The position numbers were made by a program. DNA of 62,783 bases, filler included, from Candidatus Woesearchaeota archaeon (GTDB lineage Archaea; Nanobdellota; Nanobdellia; Woesearchaeales; CAZJJJ01): NCBI GenBank assembly GCA_046538795.1. It is 5 parts of 5 records of this genome, joined end to end, with 100 filler letters (N's around TTAATTAATTAA, not from the genome) between each part and the next. Parts side by side here need not be neighbours in the genome. Positions count along the whole stretch, not along the records: positions 1 to 15,105 come from JBKHIF010000033.1; 4 more parts are not named here. One strand, given 5' to 3'. Of this stretch, positions 1-6,000 are shown in pieces; position 1 is the first letter of the stretch, and each line of letters begins with the position of its first letter.

Positions 1-3000
1 TTTGATATCAAAAGTCATTATCACATCTTTATCGGGCGCTCTGATTCCGGTTGTCTCTTTTGCAACAGCTACAGCCATGTTTGCACTAAATTGAAGGTCT
101 GTTTCTAAAAAAGGCATGGTATCTATCAGCACATTTGAATTTCCAGAAATAATCCTTACATTAAGAATGCCCATTATACCCTCATCAGCTCTTGTATTAA
201 GCGCAACTATAGGAACTTCTTTCTCTGTCGGAAACTCCTCATCTGAAGATAAGGATGTGACAAGTCCTGTTCCTGAAACAAAATCCGCCCCTGAAAAAAA
301 ACTGTCAAGAAGTATTATTGAAGAAAAAACATATGTTGTCATAAGTACACCTAGTATAAAAAAAAGCAAATTACGTTTTCTCATTTTTCTTCCTGAAATT
401 AACATAAAAAAAATAATACCATAATCAATTTAAATATTATCTTGAATAAGTTAATTATTAATAAAAAAGAAATTAGATAATTCAAAAAAAGAAAAACATT
501 CAATCACCAACATTCACCTGAGTACATATCTTATCCAAACAGGACACCACAAAACGTCCGGATTTCCCTGCACAGAAATCCGGGCATTGCTCTGATTCAT
601 CTACAAATCTTAAATTTCCGAAAAAACATTTCCTTGTTTCTATATGGACTCCGCATGCACAGTCATCATCTGAAATGCAATATCTTTCAGGATCATGTTC
701 AAAAAATATTATGTCATTCGGCGTTATGCATTGCCTCGGGCAAGCTTCACAGTCTGGCTCAAGAACCTCATATCCAGACTCCACGCACTTTTCAAAAGCA
801 GACTTTTCCGGCTCCTCAACTAAAAGTTCTGTAAAAGATATGTTTACTATCTCATTCCAGGCCAGAGAAACAGAAACCTCAAATGCATATACATTTTCAG
901 GAAGCTCATCTGTTTCAACATTAAACCTGTATGTAAATATATAGCATCCAGGACATCTCAGTATTTCATGCCCAATCTCCCTTAAATTTGATGCATTATG
1001 ATTTTGATAGCTATAAGACTGACTTATCCTTTCGACAATCGTTTCCCTTAAAAGCGAAATCTCATCCTGCGAACACTCAAAAGTGCATGATCCATCAACA
1101 TATTTCCATTCACCTATGCATTCAATCCTTGCAGCATCTTTGTTCTTTTCAGCACAACAGGCACCTCTTTGGTCTTCGGGAATAGAACCACAGTCTATAG
1201 TGCATGCAGTTGCAAGTAATGAAAATATCATAAGCCCTAAAAGGATTTTAAGTTTCATTGAATCACCAAATTATACCAAAACAAGATCCATTTAAATATG
1301 TTTTCAAATAACTCATACCGATGGCTATTCCATGATCTAAATGAAGGGGTGCCCCAGAGAGTACTTTTCGAGCACACCTGCGGTGCATTGTTCCAAAGAA
1401 GTTTACCCTTTCAGGGCAAACCCCACAAAAACGAAAAGAAATTTTTTAAATTTATGCACACATTGAAACAAGGTTTCAATCGTGTTCCATGCGAAATTTT
1501 CAATAATATGGCATAAAGCCAATAATCAGTACTATTTTCAGATATATTTTGCAATTTCTTTTCTGAACTGAGAAAAAGACCTGAAATGTATTGTGTTAAA
1601 ACCCTTTTCTTCAGCAGTTTTAATATTTTTTAAAGTATCGTCAACAAAAAGACATTGCGACGGAGGAAGGCCAATTTCTCTTATTGCATGTCTAAATATG
1701 TTTATATCAGGCTTGATAAGTCCAAGATCGTCTGAAAAGAACATATCTTCAAAGACATTTTTGTATTTTTTTCTTAAGATAGGAGAGATAAAACTGTAAT
1801 TATTAGATAAGATAAACAATCTTTTCGTCTTTTTTAGTTTTTTCAGAAATAAGATCAGTTCTTTGTTTTCAGTAACAGAGTCAAGGTATATTTTTTTAAA
1901 AATATCAAACGAAAAATCAAACTTATTGATCCTTTTGAAAAAATCTTTAAATGATTCTTTGTTCATCAAGAGGTTGGCTTCTTCTGAATCGATAAGCGTA
2001 AATAGTTCATCTTCATCAAGATCATATTTACAAGCAAGAGTCATTGCAATCCGCTTTATGAAAACACCTTTTGTAAGAACACCTCCCCAGTCAAACAGAA
2101 CAGCTTTTATCTGATTTGAAGAAAGATAGTCTATAAGCATTTTCTTAAGATTATGAGGATTGTGTTTTTTTGAAAGGATTTCTCTGAAAAGAGAGTAAAG
2201 ATTCAAATCAAGAATATCTTTATTTCTGTACCTGAAAACTTGTCTCATATTCTCAAGCCCTTCTATTGTCTGGGTTATCATTTTCTCTGCAATCTTTACA
2301 GAATGGCCTTTTCCAAGCAAAGTTCCAAAAAGTTGGTTTCTTGAAAAAGATGAAAAACTGGTTACAAAGAGATCACCAACCCCGCCCGCATCAACAAAAG
2401 TGTGCCTTCTAATTCTCTTAATATTTTTATAGTAGAATTCTGTATATGCCTTGCTTATTATAGATGCAGTAAAATTATTGCCAGTCTCAAGTCCGTTACA
2501 GATTCCTACAAGTATTGCAATTATGTTTTTGTAGAATCCCAAAAGCTGTACACCCTCAATATCTGTTGTTGGAGTAAGAACTACATTTTTTGTCTTTAGC
2601 ATGTTGATTGTTTTTTTGGTAAGATCATTTCTGCCTGCAACAATAAGCTTGCATGGAAGTCCTTTGGCCAATTCAGAAGCAATTGATGGTCCTGATAATG
2701 AAACAACATTTTCTGTAAGATTTGCAGAGATCAGTGATGTCATGGTCTTTTTTCCATTGTAAAGACCCTTGCTGGCAGAAATTATTATCTGATCCTTGAT
2801 AAATGGCTTGATTTTTGAACAGACATCCATCATGAATTTTGAAGGTACTGCAATAATCACCATGCCAGGAGATTTTAACTTACTGTAATTATTGTGCGCT
2901 ATTATCTTTTTGTTTAATTTAACATCAGAAAGGTACTTGCTGTTCCTGTTGTTAGAATTAATCTCTTTGATAACATCAGGTTCAATTGACAGCAGGAAAA

Positions 3001-6000
3001 CATTTTTTATTCTTCTTGAATTAGAAAAGGCATTTGCAAGAGCTGTTCCAAAACTTCCTGATCCTATTATATGAAGATCCATAATGGTTATTATAAAAAT
3101 AGCATTTAATATATTTTTGGTTATCTTTTTAGTAAGCACTTATGTAGCGGGAGTTTGCAATTCTATTAATTTCATGTTTTCGATCAGTTTCACTTAGATT
3201 TGCAAGCTTTAGTGATTCGTCTATCAAGTTCACAGTTTCACGCAAATGCCTGTTCATACCTTCCAGACAGCGATCTATACAGTATGCCTTGTCACAATCA
3301 TGCGCTGGCCTGTAAAGCCTCAAAGAAGAATCTACTTTCCCTCCAAGCTTGCAAAACGCCATAATGTGGACCTTATATCCTTCAAGAAGGGAATATATTT
3401 TTTCAGAAAGCATATTGTATTCTTCCTGCTCAAGAGTTTTCGGCAATCTGTCTTCATATTTTTTTCTCAACTCTTCAACTTTTCTACAGAGTCTTTTTTC
3501 TGAAATCATCTCTCGCGCATAAAATAAAATAATTAAAAAATTTTTCGGTAGAAAACATAGATCACCTTTGCTTTTTCGAGCCATTCAATAAAAGAACAAC
3601 ATAGATCATGATAAGCCCTGAAACTACAAGTATGATTTCTATTGGAAAGAATCCTGAAAGATATGTTATCACGCCAGCAAAGACTAATAATAGCCCTGTA
3701 ACCAAAAGCACATAAGATAGAAAAAAAATAAACACGGTTTTTTTAACTTCTCGTGCCTTTTTTTGAAAATTTCTTTCAGCCTTATGCCTGACAGAATCTA
3801 TTTTTTCCAGGAATTTTATAGCTGACTCAAGCAATTCACTTAATTTCATCTTGCCTCGTTATTATTTCTTATGCATCATTATAGCTGAAGCAACAATCCC
3901 TGCAAGCATCCCAACACCAAAAGATATTCCAACTGAAGGCAAAGGATGTTCCTGCACTTTATGCTCCATCTCTTTTTTTGTTTCCATAGCTCTTTGCTTT
4001 GCGTGCTCTATCTTCTCTCTCACGTCAACATCTCGCCCAGAGAATGATTTTTCCAAATTCTGTATCTGTGTCTTAAGACCTGATAGTGCATCACGAAGAT
4101 CCCTTGTATCTAAATCATCTTTAGCCATTATTTCCACCTCCCAATAAGAAAATGAAGGATGATTGATTTTATAAAACGTAGCCAGTGGATCTTGCGAATT
4201 ATGAAAAAAACAACACTATTTTACCGATATTTTTGAGAAAAAGCAAGATGAGTCCATAAAGATTATTTTTCTTTGCTTTAGCAAAGGAAAAATCAAAGAC
4301 AACTCTGTTTTCCGCAGACCCTAAATTGCCCTGCTATTTGGGTACCAAATAATCATTTATTTTTTGAACATGTTCAAATCCCAAGGACAAATGAAGAATG
4401 AAATGATGAAATGCGTCCGCCGGGATTAGTTTGAAAGCAGAGCTTTCTAACTTGCCAAAATTTCTTTGAAATTTTGAGCATGAACCCGAAGGTTCAAATC
4501 CTTCAAATTCCAAACGCATACAACTTAAAGTAGGACTGCGTCCGCCGTAGAACGAACCAACAAATAAAAACACAACATTTAAATAAATTTATCATTTATA
4601 TGTATCCGGTGATTACCCATGGTAAATGTAACTTTATCGGTTCCAACAGAACTTAAATCTAAGATGGATAAGCTTAATGAAGTAAATTGGAGTGCTGTTG
4701 CAAGAAATGCATTTGATGAAAAAATAAAAGATATTGAGTTTATCAAAAGGTTCAAGTCAAAAAGTACAATGAGTGAAGAGGATGCTCTTTCACTTGGAAA
4801 AGAATTGAATAGTAAAATAAGCCAAAGAAGGTCTTAAGAATGCAGCTTGTTATAGATGCAAATGTATTGTTTTCTTTACTTATCAAAAAAAGTAAAATAG
4901 AAAACCTATTTTTTAATGAAGAGCTTGAATTATTCGCTCCTGAATTTATTTTTACTGAGTTTGAAAAATATAAAGAAATAATCTTAAGAAAAACTCAACG
5001 CTCAGATATGGAATTCTATAGATTATTTACGATACTTAAAAGGATTATTAAAACCATCCCAAATGAAGAAACCTCAAAATTTATCACTGATGCAGAAGAA
5101 ATATGTCCTGATACAAAAGATGTCGATTATTTTGCTCTTGCATTAAAATTAAAATGTCCTATCTGGAGTAATGATAAAAAAATAAAAAAACAGGATAATA
5201 TTGAAATATATGATTCAACTGAATTATTGAAAATATTTAGTGATGAATAAAAACTACTGTATCAGTTGGCTTGATTTTAGACAATTGATAGTTCAGGGCT
5301 ATTTAACTTATGATAGATCAGATATCGATAATATGAACCGGAAAGATAAACATAAAACTCTTATTGCTACACCTAAAGCGTTTATTTTTTTAGAATCTTA
5401 TTTTAGTGGAAAACGTACCGAAGAAACAATCAAGATAACAAAACAAAACCTATATCTATTTGTAATATTCTCTCTTATTGCCATATTCTTAGCAATATTA
5501 AGTTTTCTATTTAATTTGTTGATTGCATAATTTCCGGATAATATTAAAGGATCTTTAATTATGTCATTTTTTATTGCTTTTATAACGCTTGTTTTTATTA
5601 TTTATATGTTGACAAAGAAAAAGTTTTTCTGACAGAAATTCACGCACTGAACCCAAAAGAAAAAACTGCGTCCGCCGGGATTTGAACCCGGATAGGCGGC
5701 TGTCTTCACGAAAGTGAAATATCCTGTGTGGATCTTCAGATCTTAACGTGTGGAAGGCCGCAGTCATAGCCATTAGACCACAGACGCAATATGAATTTAT
5801 AAAAAGAAATTCAAGTGTTTTATAAAATTAACTATTTGTTGTCCTCTTTTTTTAACTCAGATCGCATATTTTCTATGAACCTGTCAAAATCATGAACCTT
5901 TATGCCAGCACCGCAGGCATGCTCATGTCCTCCGCCATAACCATCTATATCCTTAAGAGACTCAGCAAGTATTTTTGAGATCACATATTTGCCTGAACGA

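What a model noticed while it worked through the whole genome (the two positions that open the first line are those of the whole stretch)
1538..3139. Lineage-specific fusion of NAD-dependent glycerol-3-phosphate dehydrogenase with a HAD phosphatase
g00050 (533 aa) is one open frame that joins a complete bacterial-type GpsA (sn-glycerol-3-phosphate dehydrogenase, residues 24-331) to a complete HAD-family phosphatase (344-517). Boldest reading: the fusion channels DHAP through glycerol-3-phosphate straight to free glycerol, giving this fermenting archaeon, which has no ATP synthase, respiratory chain or phospholipid synthesis genes, a yeast-like NADH sink or a compatible solute for life in a microbial mat. 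New: a two-domain glycerol-forming enzyme is known from halotolerant green algae, not from archaea or bacteria; in DPANN the GpsA gene has been read as a lipid gene.
Evidence so far: Pfam: NAD_Gly3P_dh_N 120.2 bits, NAD_Gly3P_dh_C 103.0, GPD_NAD_C_bact 47.1, Hydrolase 48.8 and HAD_2 37.9 bits on one protein. Search in 40 other Woesearchaeales: 0 of 40 have the fused form; 10 have a frame of 291-388 aa matching only the GpsA part (within residues 4-339) and 6 have separate 198-259-aa frames matching only residues 332-532. No PlsX/Y/C, CdsA, G1P dehydrogenase, GGGP synthase, ATP synthase or respiratory complex in pfam.tsv. Runs that hold DNA of this genome are labelled microbial mat metagenome.
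(Added by a program. Inside this text positions count along the whole contig: they may not be those of the stretch shown here. "Call 12" and the like, gene names such as g00115 and contig names such as C1 are that model's own, and its searches are not shown. The text may have been shortened before it was handed on; [...] marks where a part breaks off. The agent that wrote the report below was given it as the finding of a first reader that could run no searches.)

Follow-up and report, generated by a model that had tools for sequence, protein, structure and literature searches.

The report
Archaeal fused glycerol-phosphate dehydrogenase and phosphatase
A tiny symbiotic archaeon carries one gene that joins the enzyme making glycerol-3-phosphate to a phosphatase, a rare conserved fusion that probably turns a glycolysis intermediate into free glycerol to dispose of surplus reducing power, much as yeast and salt-loving algae do with other proteins.

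Summary
One open frame on the minus strand (1538-3139; probable start ATG 3082, 514 aa) joins a complete bacterial-type GpsA to a complete HAD-IA hydrolase. It is not an assembly error: contigs from another study bridge the junction, and about 19 other fused proteins at 39-44% identity exist, so it is not unique to this lineage. It is rare: 2 intact and 1 decayed copy in 401 genomes of the order.

GpsA catalytic motifs and HAD motifs I-IV are conserved. All fused HAD domains form one clade, which points to a single fusion.

One caveat was missed: the Asp+2 of HAD motif I is Gly in every member, as in E. coli YihX. No known glycerol-3-phosphatase (recalled) has this.

The genome (97.6% complete) has TIM, GAPDH and PFOR. 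No match was found to nine families that would use or make glycerol-3-phosphate, nor to LDH, D-2-hydroxyacid dehydrogenase, Fe-ADH, Zn-ADH or ATP synthase. In at least 36 other genomes of the order, a different GpsA class sits beside PlsC-type acyltransferases. The fused clade does not.

Best reading (about 0.5): DHAP to glycerol-3-phosphate to glycerol, acting as an NADH sink. This would be convergent with the algal di-domain enzyme. The substrate is untested.

The parts
1538..3082 (-). Fused gpsA-HAD gene, 514 codons plus stop (the longest frame extends to GTG 3139)
   Evidence: Start inferred from the alignment with 14 homologues and from the database gene call P0002.
3047..3064 (-). Rossmann dinucleotide-binding motif GSGSFG (residues 26-31 of the 533-aa frame)
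   Evidence: G26, G28 and G31 are nearly invariant in alignment A1.
2627..3070 (-). GpsA N-terminal NAD(P)-binding domain (residues 24-171)
   Evidence: PF01210, 121.9 bits. Foldseek match to Coxiella GpsA 3k96, TM 0.89 by target.
2147..2563 (-). GpsA C-terminal substrate-binding domain (residues 193-331). It carries K204-N205 (2525-2530), D256 (2372-2374), T260 (2360-2362) and R267-N268 (2336-2341). The catalytic Lys K124 lies at 2768-2770.
   Evidence: PF07479, 104.5 bits, and PF20618, 48.6 bits. The same coordinates were returned. The residues are invariant or nearly so, and are aligned to the same motifs of 3k96 and 1z82.
2111..2146 (-). Short structured helical linker (residues 332-343) with an invariant Tyr (Y338 in the 533-aa frame)
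   Evidence: Y338 invariant. The AF2 model has no segment below pLDDT 50, and helix 309-321 runs straight into strand 327-330.
1541..2110 (-). HAD-IA hydrolase domain with a helical C1-type cap (residues 344-533)
   Evidence: PF00702, 50.2 bits, and PF13419, 38.3 bits. TIGR01509 HAD-IA v3, 58.1 bits, above its cut-off of 29.4. Nearest solved structures are 3cnh, 2i6x and YihX.
2078..2095 (-). HAD motif I, FDWGGV. Asp350 is the nucleophile. Position +2 is Gly instead of the usual Asp.
   Evidence: Read directly. D-W-G-(N/G/C)-V is found in all intact fused members. It aligns to FDLGNV of E. coli YihX.
1799..1810 (-). HAD motif II, LSNN (Ser445)
   Evidence: S445 is invariant; N446 and N447 are nearly invariant.
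1709..1714 (-). HAD motif III, Lys476-Pro477
   Evidence: K476 and P477 are nearly invariant and shared with YihX.
1637..1642 (-). HAD motif IV, Asp500-Asp501

Best explanation
The gene encodes a two-step, one-polypeptide enzyme. The N-terminal GpsA half reduces dihydroxyacetone phosphate (DHAP) with NAD(P)H to sn-glycerol-3-phosphate. The C-terminal HAD half hydrolyses that product to glycerol and phosphate.

This genome has glycolytic NADH production (GAPDH) and ferredoxin-linked pyruvate oxidation. No ATP synthase, no tested lactate or alcohol dehydrogenase and no tested glycerol-3-phosphate-consuming enzyme was found. In that setting the pair would work as an irreversible NADH sink that also returns phosphate, a 'glycerol shunt'.

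Shown:
- the fusion and its conservation;
- the intact catalytic motifs of both halves;
- the single origin of the fused HAD;
- the genome context.

Inferred:
- that glycerol-3-phosphate is the HAD substrate;
- that the product is free glycerol;
- that the physiological role is redox balance.
For: 1. The fusion is real and is kept under selection.
- About 19 fused clusters exist at 39-44% identity to the query.
- Among 13 full-length members, mean pairwise identity is 53% in the GpsA part and 47% in the HAD part.
- All 19 fused HAD domains tested form one clade (SH-aLRT 95), apart from 16 stand-alone relatives and YihX.
- Subgroups match the GpsA tree.

2. Both active sites are kept.
- GpsA: GSGSFG, SKG, KN, GDL..T and SRN.
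- HAD: Asp nucleophile, Ser, Lys-Pro and Asp-Asp.
- In the two decayed copies (P0015, P0070) all four HAD motifs are gone together while the GpsA motifs stay. This is what loss of a catalytic function looks like.

3. The AF2 model is compact: pLDDT 91.5, pTM 0.80, no disordered linker.

4. In the own genome (97.6% complete), TIM, GAPDH and two POR_N genes are present. A tagatose-bisphosphate-aldolase-like gene lies 3.9 kb away.
- Not found, glycerol-3-phosphate users or makers: PlsY (29), PlsC/PlsB-type acyltransferase (30), cytidylyltransferase (31), CDP-alcohol phosphatidyltransferase (81), CTP_transf_1 (82), PcrB (27), G1P dehydrogenase (57), glycerol kinase (25).
- Not found, other NADH sinks: Ldh_1_N (59), Fe-ADH (83), ADH_N (84). 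The only 2-Hacid_dh_C hit is S-adenosylhomocysteine hydrolase (60, 87).
- Not found: ATP synthase alpha/beta (56).

5. Contrast within the order.
- At least 36 of the 108 GpsA-bearing genomes have a different GpsA class directly beside one or two PF01553 acyltransferase genes (confirmed in L012 and L020).
- The fused or decayed-fusion genomes G000 and G381 and the five nearest solo-GpsA genomes have no PF01553 match. G083 has only a weak one.

6. Precedent. Algal di-domain GPDH does exactly this chemistry (passages of PMC12157500; PDB 6IUY).
Against: - Asp+2 of HAD motif I is Gly in every fused member. In HAD phosphotransferases its side chain contacts the substrate phosphate (passages of PMC10541634), and by established knowledge (recalled) it serves as general acid/base.
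- The known glycerol-3-phosphatases that I recall (yeast Gpp1/2, mammalian PGP, Mycobacterium Rv1692, the algal domain) all have DxD.
- The closest characterised relative with DxG is YihX, an alpha-glucose-1-phosphate phosphatase. Its substrate has a better leaving group than glycerol-3-phosphate.
- No NCBIfam equivalog cut-off is reached by either half.
- No conserved gene neighbourhood supports the pathway.
- No glycerol facilitator was found.
- The nearest solo-GpsA genomes carry no close stand-alone copy of this HAD, and one lineage let the HAD decay. GpsA of this clade is therefore useful without it.
- Hydrogenases, SDR-type and other possible NADH sinks were not searched.
- No expression data exist.
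Confidence: 0.5

Rival explanations
1. The GpsA half makes glycerol-3-phosphate for some other use. The HAD half is a phosphatase for a different phosphoester, for example a sugar-1-phosphate as in YihX, or a damaged or surplus metabolite. The fusion would reflect co-expression or loose metabolic linkage, not a two-step pathway.
For: - Motif I is DxG, as in YihX, 3cnh and 2i6x.
- The best NCBIfam HAD hits are generic: HAD-IA v3 at 58 bits, TIGR02247 at 59 bits, YihX PRK09456 at 46.9 bits.
- Stand-alone HADs with the same DWG(N/G)V motif are widespread in Bacteroidales, Actinomycetota and other archaea without any GpsA. Of 234 relatives found by the motif scan, only 3 of the 80 best loci kept are fused.
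- Solo GpsA of the same clade functions without this HAD.
Against: - A fusion kept over divergence down to about 40% identity, with a structured conserved linker, usually marks consecutive or coupled steps.
- None of the eight families searched for a glycerol-3-phosphate consumer was found in the genome. Glycerol-3-phosphate would therefore be a dead end without a phosphatase.
Confidence: 0.25
2. Lipid or head-group route. Glycerol-3-phosphate feeds membrane lipid or polar head-group synthesis on lipids scavenged from a host. The HAD half would be a lipid-phosphate phosphatase (phosphatidylglycerophosphate or lysophosphatidate type).
For: - DPANN GpsA has been read as a lipid gene (passage of PMC8204110).
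- The HAD resembles the lipid-phosphatase N-terminal domain of soluble epoxide hydrolase in fold (Foldseek E about 1e-10) and in TIGR02247 (59 bits).
- Another GpsA class of the order sits in an acyltransferase operon.
Against: - The genome has no match to PlsY, PF01553 acyltransferases, CDP-alcohol phosphatidyltransferases, CTP_transf_1, PcrB or G1P dehydrogenase.
- The fused clade is phylogenetically separate from the operon class, with 31-35% identity, and is never beside acyltransferases.
- No membrane anchor is evident in the model.
Confidence: 0.1
3. The HAD half is not a working phosphatase. It would be a ligand-binding or regulatory module, for example sensing glycerol-3-phosphate or phosphate to control GpsA.
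For: [quoted passage not shown]
- One lineage tolerates complete decay of the domain.
Against: - The nucleophile Asp, Ser, Lys and Asp-Asp are all strictly kept in intact members, and are lost together only in the decayed copies.
- YihX, with the same DxG motif, is an active phosphatase (annotation; passage of PMC8938923).
Confidence: 0.08
4. Assembly or gene-calling artefact: two neighbouring genes joined by a lost stop codon.
For: The window's genome is a single draft metagenome-assembled genome in 97 contigs.
Against: - Contigs of a run from a different study bridge the junction with zero differences.
- About 19 independent fused homologues from NCBI, JGI, ENA and Logan have the same architecture and a conserved linker.
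- Three fused genes lie in named public MAGs on contigs of 33-153 kb.
Confidence: 0.01

Closest known systems
[quoted passage not shown]
   Same: One polypeptide combines an NAD-dependent G3P dehydrogenase with a HAD-superfamily phosphatase. The algal enzyme converts DHAP to glycerol directly (passages of PMC12157500 citing He 2020 Plant J 102:153 and Morales-Sanchez 2017 Plant J 90:1079). The GPDH parts are homologous: 53.7 bits, Foldseek E 4.5e-19.
   Different: - Domain order is reversed. In algae the phosphatase is N-terminal (PMC12157500 abstract; the GPDH match lies at residues 308-530 of 6iuy_A). Here it is C-terminal.
- The HAD halves are not detectably alike in sequence: 6IUY is not among the 27 PDB sequences matched by the HAD query at E <= 0.01.
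- The GpsA half here is bacterial-type (PF20618; nearest is Coxiella 3k96).
- The HAD here has DxG, not DxD. That the algal domain is phosphoserine-phosphatase-like with DxD is recalled, not tested.
- This points to an independent, convergent fusion.
[quoted passage not shown]
   Same: - HAD-IA fold with a helical cap. Foldseek TM by target is 0.75-0.83.
- Motif I is D-x-G-(N/G)-V, lacking Asp+2: FDLGNV in YihX, WDIGGV in 3cnh and FDLGGV in 2i6x.
- Motifs II-IV are shared.
   Different: - Only 20-24% identity.
- The YihX equivalog model scores 46.9 bits against a cut-off of 295.
- These proteins are stand-alone, about 200 aa.
- The YihX substrate is a hemiacetal phosphate. The fused domain's substrate is unknown.
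Bacterial GpsA (NAD(P)H-dependent sn-glycerol-3-phosphate dehydrogenase), e.g. Coxiella burnetii 3k96, Thermotoga 1z82
   Same: Same fold (TM 0.89-0.90 by target), same Pfam domains, and the same catalytic and phosphate-binding motifs.
   Different: - About 30% identity.
- Below every NCBIfam equivalog cut-off (best 213.5 bits against 257).
- Carries a C-terminal HAD domain.
- Not linked to PlsY or PlsC. A bacterial PlsY-GpsA fusion, P0177, shows the usual lipid linkage.
Two-enzyme glycerol pathway of yeast (Gpd1/2 plus Gpp1/2) and the mammalian glycerol shunt (GPD1 plus PGP/G3PP)
   Same: The proposed chemistry and physiological logic are the same: DHAP is reduced to reoxidise NADH, then an irreversible dephosphorylation follows. 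The yeast redox role is stated in the PMC5466052 abstract (listing). The mammalian shunt is described in the PMC12157500 abstract.
   Different: There the two steps are on separate proteins, and the phosphatases have the DxD motif (recalled). Here a single chain carries a DxG HAD.

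Membership tests
GpsA / NAD(P)H-dependent glycerol-3-phosphate dehydrogenase (PF01210 + PF07479 + PF20618) | N-terminal Rossmann fold with a GxGxxG dinucleotide-binding motif | tested here: met
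   GSGSFG at residues 26-31. PF01210 scores 121.9 bits against a cut-off of 23.1. G26, G28 and G31 are nearly invariant.
GpsA / NAD(P)H-dependent glycerol-3-phosphate dehydrogenase (PF01210 + PF07479 + PF20618) | Catalytic Lys pair and Asn, Asp and Thr around the DHAP carbonyl, and the Arg-Asn phosphate clamp. These are K120, K204, N205, D260, T264 and R269 of human GPD1. The K120/K204 role comes from the PMC9119304 abstract; the mapping of numbers is recalled. | tested here: met
   K124 (SKG), K204-N205, D256, T260 and R267-N268 are invariant or nearly so in 15-18 sequences. They align to the same motifs of 3k96 and 1z82. Residue-for-residue alignment to the human enzyme was not made.
GpsA / NAD(P)H-dependent glycerol-3-phosphate dehydrogenase (PF01210 + PF07479 + PF20618) | Overall two-domain GpsA fold | tested here: met
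   Foldseek: 3k96 at E 3e-24, TM 0.89 by target; 1z82 at TM 0.90. The model has pLDDT 91.5.
GpsA / NAD(P)H-dependent glycerol-3-phosphate dehydrogenase (PF01210 + PF07479 + PF20618) | Reaches a curated NCBIfam cut-off for GpsA | tested here: not met
   The best score is NF000942 at 213.5 bits against 257. All 14 GpsA models listed fall below their cut-offs. This is a divergent clade, so naming rests on Pfam, motifs and fold.
GpsA / NAD(P)H-dependent glycerol-3-phosphate dehydrogenase (PF01210 + PF07479 + PF20618) | Enzymatic reduction of DHAP with NAD(P)H | not testable with these tools
   Needs an assay.
HAD-superfamily phosphatase, subfamily IA (C1 cap) | Motif I nucleophile Asp at the end of strand 1 | tested here: met
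   D350 in FDWGGV. It is invariant in intact fused members and shared with YihX.
HAD-superfamily phosphatase, subfamily IA (C1 cap) | Motif I Asp+2. The side chain contacts the substrate phosphate (PMC10541634 passages). Its general acid/base role is recalled. | tested here: not met
   Gly352 stands at +2 in all intact fused members examined. The backbone carbonyl that binds Mg remains possible.
HAD-superfamily phosphatase, subfamily IA (C1 cap) | Motif II Ser/Thr, motif III Lys, motif IV Asp-Asp | tested here: met
   S445, K476 and D500-D501. TIGR01509 HAD-IA v3 scores 58.1 bits against a cut-off of 29.4.
HAD-superfamily phosphatase, subfamily IA (C1 cap) | Helical cap inserted between motifs I and II | tested here: met
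   Helices 332-416 of the model lie between strand 327-330 and strand 421-426. Fold matches to 3cnh, YihX and the sEH N-terminal domain.
YihX-type alpha-glucose-1-phosphate phosphatase (NF006991 / PRK09456) | Reaches the equivalog score | tested here: not met
   46.9 bits against a cut-off of 295. It shares the DxG motif but is not a member.
Algal di-domain GPDH (phosphatase-GPDH, PDB 6IUY) | Phosphatase domain N-terminal to the GPDH domain | tested here: not met
   Here the order is GpsA then HAD. In 6iuy_A the GPDH match lies at residues 308-530 of 624.
Algal di-domain GPDH (phosphatase-GPDH, PDB 6IUY) | Homologous phosphatase domain | tested here: not met
   The HAD query matched 27 PDB sequences at E <= 0.01, and 6IUY is not among them. 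The Foldseek match to 6iuy covers 360 columns, the GPDH part only.
Algal di-domain GPDH (phosphatase-GPDH, PDB 6IUY) | Direct DHAP-to-glycerol conversion by one polypeptide | not testable with these tools
   Inferred from architecture and genome context only.

The most novel reading that the evidence does not exclude
An archaeal, independently evolved single-chain DHAP-to-glycerol enzyme that serves as the principal NADH sink of an ATP-synthase-less DPANN fermenter. This would be a yeast-like or Neuberg-type glycerol fermentation in Archaea. Its HAD phosphatase would hydrolyse glycerol-3-phosphate without the canonical Asp+2, making it the first glycerol-3-phosphatase of the DxG (YihX-like) type.
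Probability: 0.4. Interest if true: 0.72.

Novelty: new variant of a known kind. Interest (0 to 1): 0.6.

Why it matters
If the assay confirms it, four things follow.

1. DPANN/Woesearchaeales fermenters would gain a concrete, testable answer to how they reoxidise glycolytic NADH without a respiratory chain or lactate/alcohol dehydrogenases. Glycerol would become a predicted excreted product feeding neighbours in microbial mats.
2. Part of the 'bacterial lipid gene' GpsA signal in DPANN genomes would need re-annotation. The order holds two classes: an acyltransferase-operon class and this non-lipid clade.
3. It would be a clean case of convergent domain fusion, with reversed order and a different HAD subfamily, to the algal di-domain GPDH. 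That enzyme is already being used as a genetically encoded tool (PMC12157500). A 514-aa prokaryotic version would be a compact alternative.
4. It would show a HAD phosphatase working on a primary-alcohol phosphate without Asp+2, which is of interest for HAD enzymology.

Database names for the family are currently partial: 'HAD-IA family hydrolase' or 'glycerol-3-phosphate dehydrogenase'.

Tried and rejected
- **Complex prediction** of the GpsA half against the HAD half (alignment A2 cut at 322/323) gave no verdict: score 0.00, mark 0.32. It is not used as evidence either way.
- **RNA evidence:** no RNA holder was listed for the stretch, so nothing can be said on expression.
- **Word-index search with the HAD region alone** found only the query itself. 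This reflects the method's sensitivity limit and is not evidence of uniqueness.
- **Gene neighbourhood.** Nothing is conserved around fused genes in the window or in L024, L025, L026 and L004. There is no HAD gene within 1.5 kb of the 18 nearest unfused GpsA loci, and none beside L005, L007, L008 or L009.
- **Stand-alone orthologue of the HAD** in the five nearest solo-GpsA genomes: only weak generic hits of 19-41 bits, and 2 of 5 genomes had none.
- **Head-group route** (PgsA or CdsA type) was considered and rejected for this genome.
- **Teichoic or CDP-glycerol route** was rejected.
- **Glycerol catabolism in reverse** (glycerol to G3P to DHAP) was considered. There is no glycerol kinase and no facilitator. 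By general knowledge, a phosphatase cannot phosphorylate glycerol and the NAD-linked equilibrium favours DHAP reduction. Rejected.
- **G3P-to-G1P 'phosphomutase' idea:** no G1P-using enzyme was found, and Asp+2, which HAD mutases need (recalled), is absent. Rejected as very unlikely.
- **G111** looked fused (522-aa frame with a stop inside), but one search gives a 337-aa frame beside acyltransferases, so it is not fused.
- **AU test** could not decide whether fused forms are one clade in the GpsA tree: p-AU 0.356.
- **Atlas look-alikes** gave only generic HAD names.
- **Literature.** One search on the YihX mechanism was uninformative. Kuznetsova 2006 (JBC) is not held. No paper describing a prokaryotic GpsA-HAD fusion was found in three full-text searches. 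bioRxiv supplements and subscription journals were not searchable.
- **** failed because I gave a whole locus instead of an ORF. They were repeated without it.

Full report
**1. The observation**

Window 1538-3139 is one uninterrupted frame of 533 codons on the minus strand. The plus strand is full of stops. Pfam places the domains as follows:

| Domain | Residues | Bits |
|---|---|---|
| NAD_Gly3P_dh_N | 24-171 | 121.9 |
| NAD_Gly3P_dh_C | 193-331 | 104.5 |
| GPD_NAD_C_bact | | 48.6 |
| Hydrolase | 344-510 | 50.2 |
| HAD_2 | | 38.3 |

- The GTG at 3139 overlaps the upstream gene (3129-3584).
- All homologues start 1-3 residues before the IIGSG motif.
- The real start is therefore very probably ATG 3082 (M20), giving 514 aa. 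This is also the gene call held in the protein collection, P0002.
- The window itself is five pieces joined by runs of N. Positions 1-15105 are contig C5 of a 1.34-Mb, 97-contig genome rated 97.6% complete.

**2. Not an artefact**

- Logan contigs of run X1 (possibly the source sample) cover 1424-3300 with no difference.
- Contigs of X2, from another study, cover 1424-2441 with no difference.
- Contigs of X3/X4 cover 1856-2155.
- All three bridge the domain junction at about 2110-2149.
- More decisively, the same architecture recurs in independent assemblies (section 3).

**3. How common is the fusion**

- A word-indexed search of 5.8 billion proteins found 12 other full-length fused proteins (509-529 aa, 39-44% identity) plus fragments.
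- An exhaustive phmmer scan of 1.84 billion 50%-representatives found fused representatives P0002, P0003, P0068 and P0069, fragments P0016, P0071 and P0075, and the 451-aa P0070.
- A profile search added P0210-P0213.
- That makes about 19 full or near-full clusters at 90% identity. Each holds 1-4 member sequences, from NCBI, JGI, ENA and Logan.
- Database names are partial: 'HAD-IA family hydrolase' or 'glycerol-3-phosphate dehydrogenase (NAD(P)+)'.
- A motif scan of one genome per 185,579 species ([IV][FL]DWG[NG]V[LI]T) gave 262 stretches and 234 relatives. Among the 80 best loci kept, only 3 are fused. All 3 are in archaeal MAGs: two are labelled Woesearchaeota and one is labelled Methanosarcinales.
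- In 401 genomes sampled from the window's order, 108 carry GpsA. Only G000 and G083 carry the intact fusion, and G381 carries a decayed one.
- Of the six sampled genomes of the window's own family, four have a GpsA match, and the two alignments listed show 24-27% identity to the query.
- So 'lineage-specific' should read 'a small, rare, patchily distributed family', not 'unique to this organism'.

**4. Anatomy**

*GpsA half*
- It keeps the Rossmann motif GSGSFG, the catalytic SKG Lys (K124), K204-N205, D256, T260 and the R267-N268 phosphate clamp. All are invariant or nearly so across 15-18 sequences.
- These residues align to the same motifs of Coxiella 3k96 (135.6 bits) and Thermotoga 1z82.
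- The role of the two lysines is from the abstract of PMC9119304. The numbering map to human GPD1 is from memory.
- No NCBIfam GpsA model reaches its cut-off (best 213.5 bits against 257), so this is a divergent clade.

*HAD half*
- It is HAD-IA (TIGR01509, 58.1 bits against a cut-off of 29.4) with a helical cap.
- It has the nucleophile Asp350, Ser445, Lys476-Pro477 and Asp500-Asp501.

- Motif I reads FDWGGV. The +2 position, normally Asp, is Gly in every intact fused member: D-W-G-(N/G/C)-V.
- Passages of PMC10541634 state that the Asp+2 backbone carbonyl binds Mg and that its side chain contacts the substrate phosphate. Its role as general acid/base is textbook knowledge that I recall.
- The same D-x-G is visible in the nearest solved relatives: 3cnh (WDIGGV) and 2i6x (FDLGGV), and E. 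coli YihX (FDLGNV), which I read from the K-12 record and aligned.
- YihX is an active alpha-glucose-1-phosphate phosphatase (annotation; passage of PMC8938923). Loss of Asp+2 therefore does not mean loss of activity, but YihX's substrate has a better leaving group than glycerol-3-phosphate.

*Structure*
- An AlphaFold2 model built on 18 sequences is confident and compact: pLDDT 91.5, pTM 0.80, no disordered linker. Helix 309-321 runs directly into the first HAD strand.
- Foldseek matches the two halves separately. The GpsA half matches GpsA structures (3k96, TM 0.89 by target). The HAD half matches 3cnh, the lipid-phosphatase domain of soluble epoxide hydrolase, and YihX.

**5. Evolution**

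- In a tree of 80 GpsA sequences, all 15 fused proteins, 2 decayed ones and 21 solo proteins form one clade (SH-aLRT 99). The fused/solo state needs 3 changes. One solo group of 11 is sister to fused P0006 (SH-aLRT 99).
- An AU test does not reject a single fused clade: p 0.356.
- In a HAD-domain tree, the 19 fused HAD domains are one clade (SH-aLRT 95), apart from 16 stand-alone DWG-type HADs and YihX. Subgroups mirror the GpsA tree.
- The simplest history is one fusion followed by vertical descent, with at least one decay and possibly losses.
- The decayed copies (P0015, P0070, and L004 of G381) have lost the nucleophile and motifs II-IV and part of the cap. Every GpsA motif is kept.
- Among 13 full-length members, mean pairwise identity is 53% in the GpsA part and 47% in the HAD part (52% in the core, 42% in the cap). 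Both halves are under comparable constraint.

**6. Genome context**

- Gene neighbours are uninformative and not conserved.
- Whole-genome family searches on G000, each with 14 control genomes, gave the following.

| Result | Family (call) |
|---|---|
| Found | TIM; GAPDH; two POR_N genes (88) |
| Not found, G3P users or makers | glycerol kinase FGGY_N; MIP facilitator; PcrB/GGGP synthase; PlsY; PF01553 acyltransferase; CTP_transf_like; Fe-ADH_2/G1P dehydrogenase; CDP-OH_P_transf; CTP_transf_1 (82) |
| Not found, energy or redox | ATP-synt_ab; Ldh_1_N; Fe-ADH; ADH_N; Succ_CoA_lig (89) |

- The single weak 2-Hacid_dh_C hit is S-adenosylhomocysteine hydrolase.
- A gene 3.9 kb away (7010-7924) is DUF2090 and resembles tagatose-1,6-bisphosphate and 5-dehydro-2-deoxyphosphogluconate aldolases, well below cut-offs. 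It may be a DHAP-forming aldolase.
- The genome thus makes DHAP and NADH and oxidises pyruvate with ferredoxin. It shows no tested route that would use glycerol-3-phosphate and none of the four tested fermentative NADH sinks.
- Absence in a 97.6%-complete draft is 'not found', not proof. Hydrogenases and SDR enzymes were not searched.
- The proteome is not acidic: median pI 6.7, with 24% of proteins below pI 5. A salt-in lifestyle is unlikely, but this does not establish an osmolyte role.

**7. Contrast within the order**

- PlsY is rare: 11 of 401 genomes over the cut-off, and only 3 of these also have GpsA.
- PF01553 acyltransferases occur in 175 of 401.
- Comparing the coordinates listed, at least 36 of the 108 GpsA genomes have GpsA within about 1.3 kb of one or two acyltransferase genes on the same contig. 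Only the best 150 of 297 acyltransferase matches were listed, so 36 is a lower bound.
- Four of the 36 (G132, G210, G208, G316) are flagged as unpublished, which leaves 32 without them.
- I confirmed the gene order acyltransferase-acyltransferase-GpsA in L012 and L020.
- These operon GpsAs are the 31-35%-identity class.
- By contrast, G000, G381 and the five genomes with the nearest solo GpsA (G331, G374, G238, G205, G344) have no PF01553 match. G083 has one weak match (3e-8).
- The order-wide tallies each include 10-13 genomes flagged unpublished. The claims in this section rest partly on them.
- This supports the lipid reading of DPANN GpsA (passage of PMC8204110) for the operon class, and argues against it for the fused clade.

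**8. Mechanism**

- The best-supported reading is a two-step enzyme: DHAP plus NAD(P)H gives glycerol-3-phosphate, which is hydrolysed to glycerol and phosphate.
- With hexose cleavage, one triose would go to pyruvate (yielding NADH and 2 ATP) and the other would absorb that NADH as glycerol. Ferredoxin-linked pyruvate oxidation would give the net ATP. This stoichiometry is inference.
- The phosphatase makes the sink irreversible and returns phosphate.
- I give this 0.5. It is limited mainly by the Asp+2 substitution and the lack of any assay.
- Rivals: another phosphoester substrate (0.25), a lipid-phosphate role (0.1), a non-catalytic module (0.08), an artefact (0.01).

**9. Comparison and novelty**

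- The algal di-domain GPDH is a true functional precedent. Sources are the abstract and passages of PMC12157500, citing He 2020 and Morales-Sanchez 2017; PDB 6IUY was hit.
- Its phosphatase is N-terminal, and it is not detectably similar to this HAD. The archaeal fusion would therefore be convergent.
- Three full-text searches found no description of a prokaryotic GpsA-HAD fusion. Subscription journals and supplements were outside reach.
- I rate it a new variant of a known kind, with interest 0.6.

Noticed in passing
window 1404-1506 (32 nt downstream of the gene's stop); second copy at window 11109-11211: A repeat of about 103 nt with at least 30 copies at 88-97% identity across the contigs of this genome. 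In Logan contigs its depth is 370-730 against about 7 for the flanks. It folds into a hairpin-rich structure ending in a 10-bp stem (z -3.3) and has no Rfam match. It may belong with the roughly 95-base hairpin mini-elements noted earlier in this genome (e1-6960952). That link was not tested.
   Followed up: partly
L012:212-2481 (G348) and L020:220-2508 (G103); coordinates of 34 further genomes: A conserved operon of two PlsC-family acyltransferase genes (about 215 aa each) followed by GpsA, in at least 36 of 401 Woesearchaeales genomes. PlsY is nearly absent from the order (11 of 401). This would be a bacterial-type glycerol-3-phosphate acylation module in archaea, using two PlsC-like enzymes and no PlsY.
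   Followed up: partly
window 7010-7924 (+): A DUF2090 protein (120.8 bits) with weak likeness to tagatose-1,6-bisphosphate aldolase and to the aldolase half of 5-dehydro-2-deoxyphosphogluconate kinase/aldolase (42-53 bits, far below cut-offs). It is a candidate DHAP-forming class I aldolase of this organism.
   Followed up: partly
L004:1216-2571 (G381); proteins P0015, P0070: Fused genes whose HAD half has decayed. The nucleophile Asp and motifs II-IV are replaced and about 60 residues of the cap are deleted, while GpsA is intact. This is a natural 'phosphatase-dead' variant, useful as a comparison.
   Followed up: yes
protein P0177 (552 aa; 50%-representative library): A PlsY-GpsA fusion (G3P_acyltransf at 14-195, GpsA at 226-541). 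This is the lipid-directed counterpart of the fusion studied here. P0120 is a GpsA with an unexplained 127-residue N-terminal extension.
   Followed up: no
window 4619-5530 (+): A PIN_2-domain gene (4840-5250, 94.4 bits), preceded and followed by small overlapping ORFs (4619-4837 and 5240-5530). This is the layout of a toxin-antitoxin pair. A PIN gene also lies near the fused gene in L024.
   Followed up: no
L089:43-12924 (Planctomycetales MAG): One open frame running through the whole 12.9-kb locus contains a stretch matching residues 201-500 of the query at 27% identity. It is a giant multidomain protein with a HAD-like module.
   Followed up: no
window 15106-15205, 30282-30381, 45228-45327, 60119-60218: The 62.8-kb window is not one contig. 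It is five pieces separated by paired runs of N. Only 1-15105 is contiguous with the finding.
   Followed up: yes
L025 (CAZKZU010000017.1): A MAG labelled 'uncultured Methanosarcinales archaeon' carries a fused gene of the Woesearchaeal family (41% identity). Its stand-alone HAD relatives L030 and L032 carry the same label. The label may be a misclassification.
   Followed up: no
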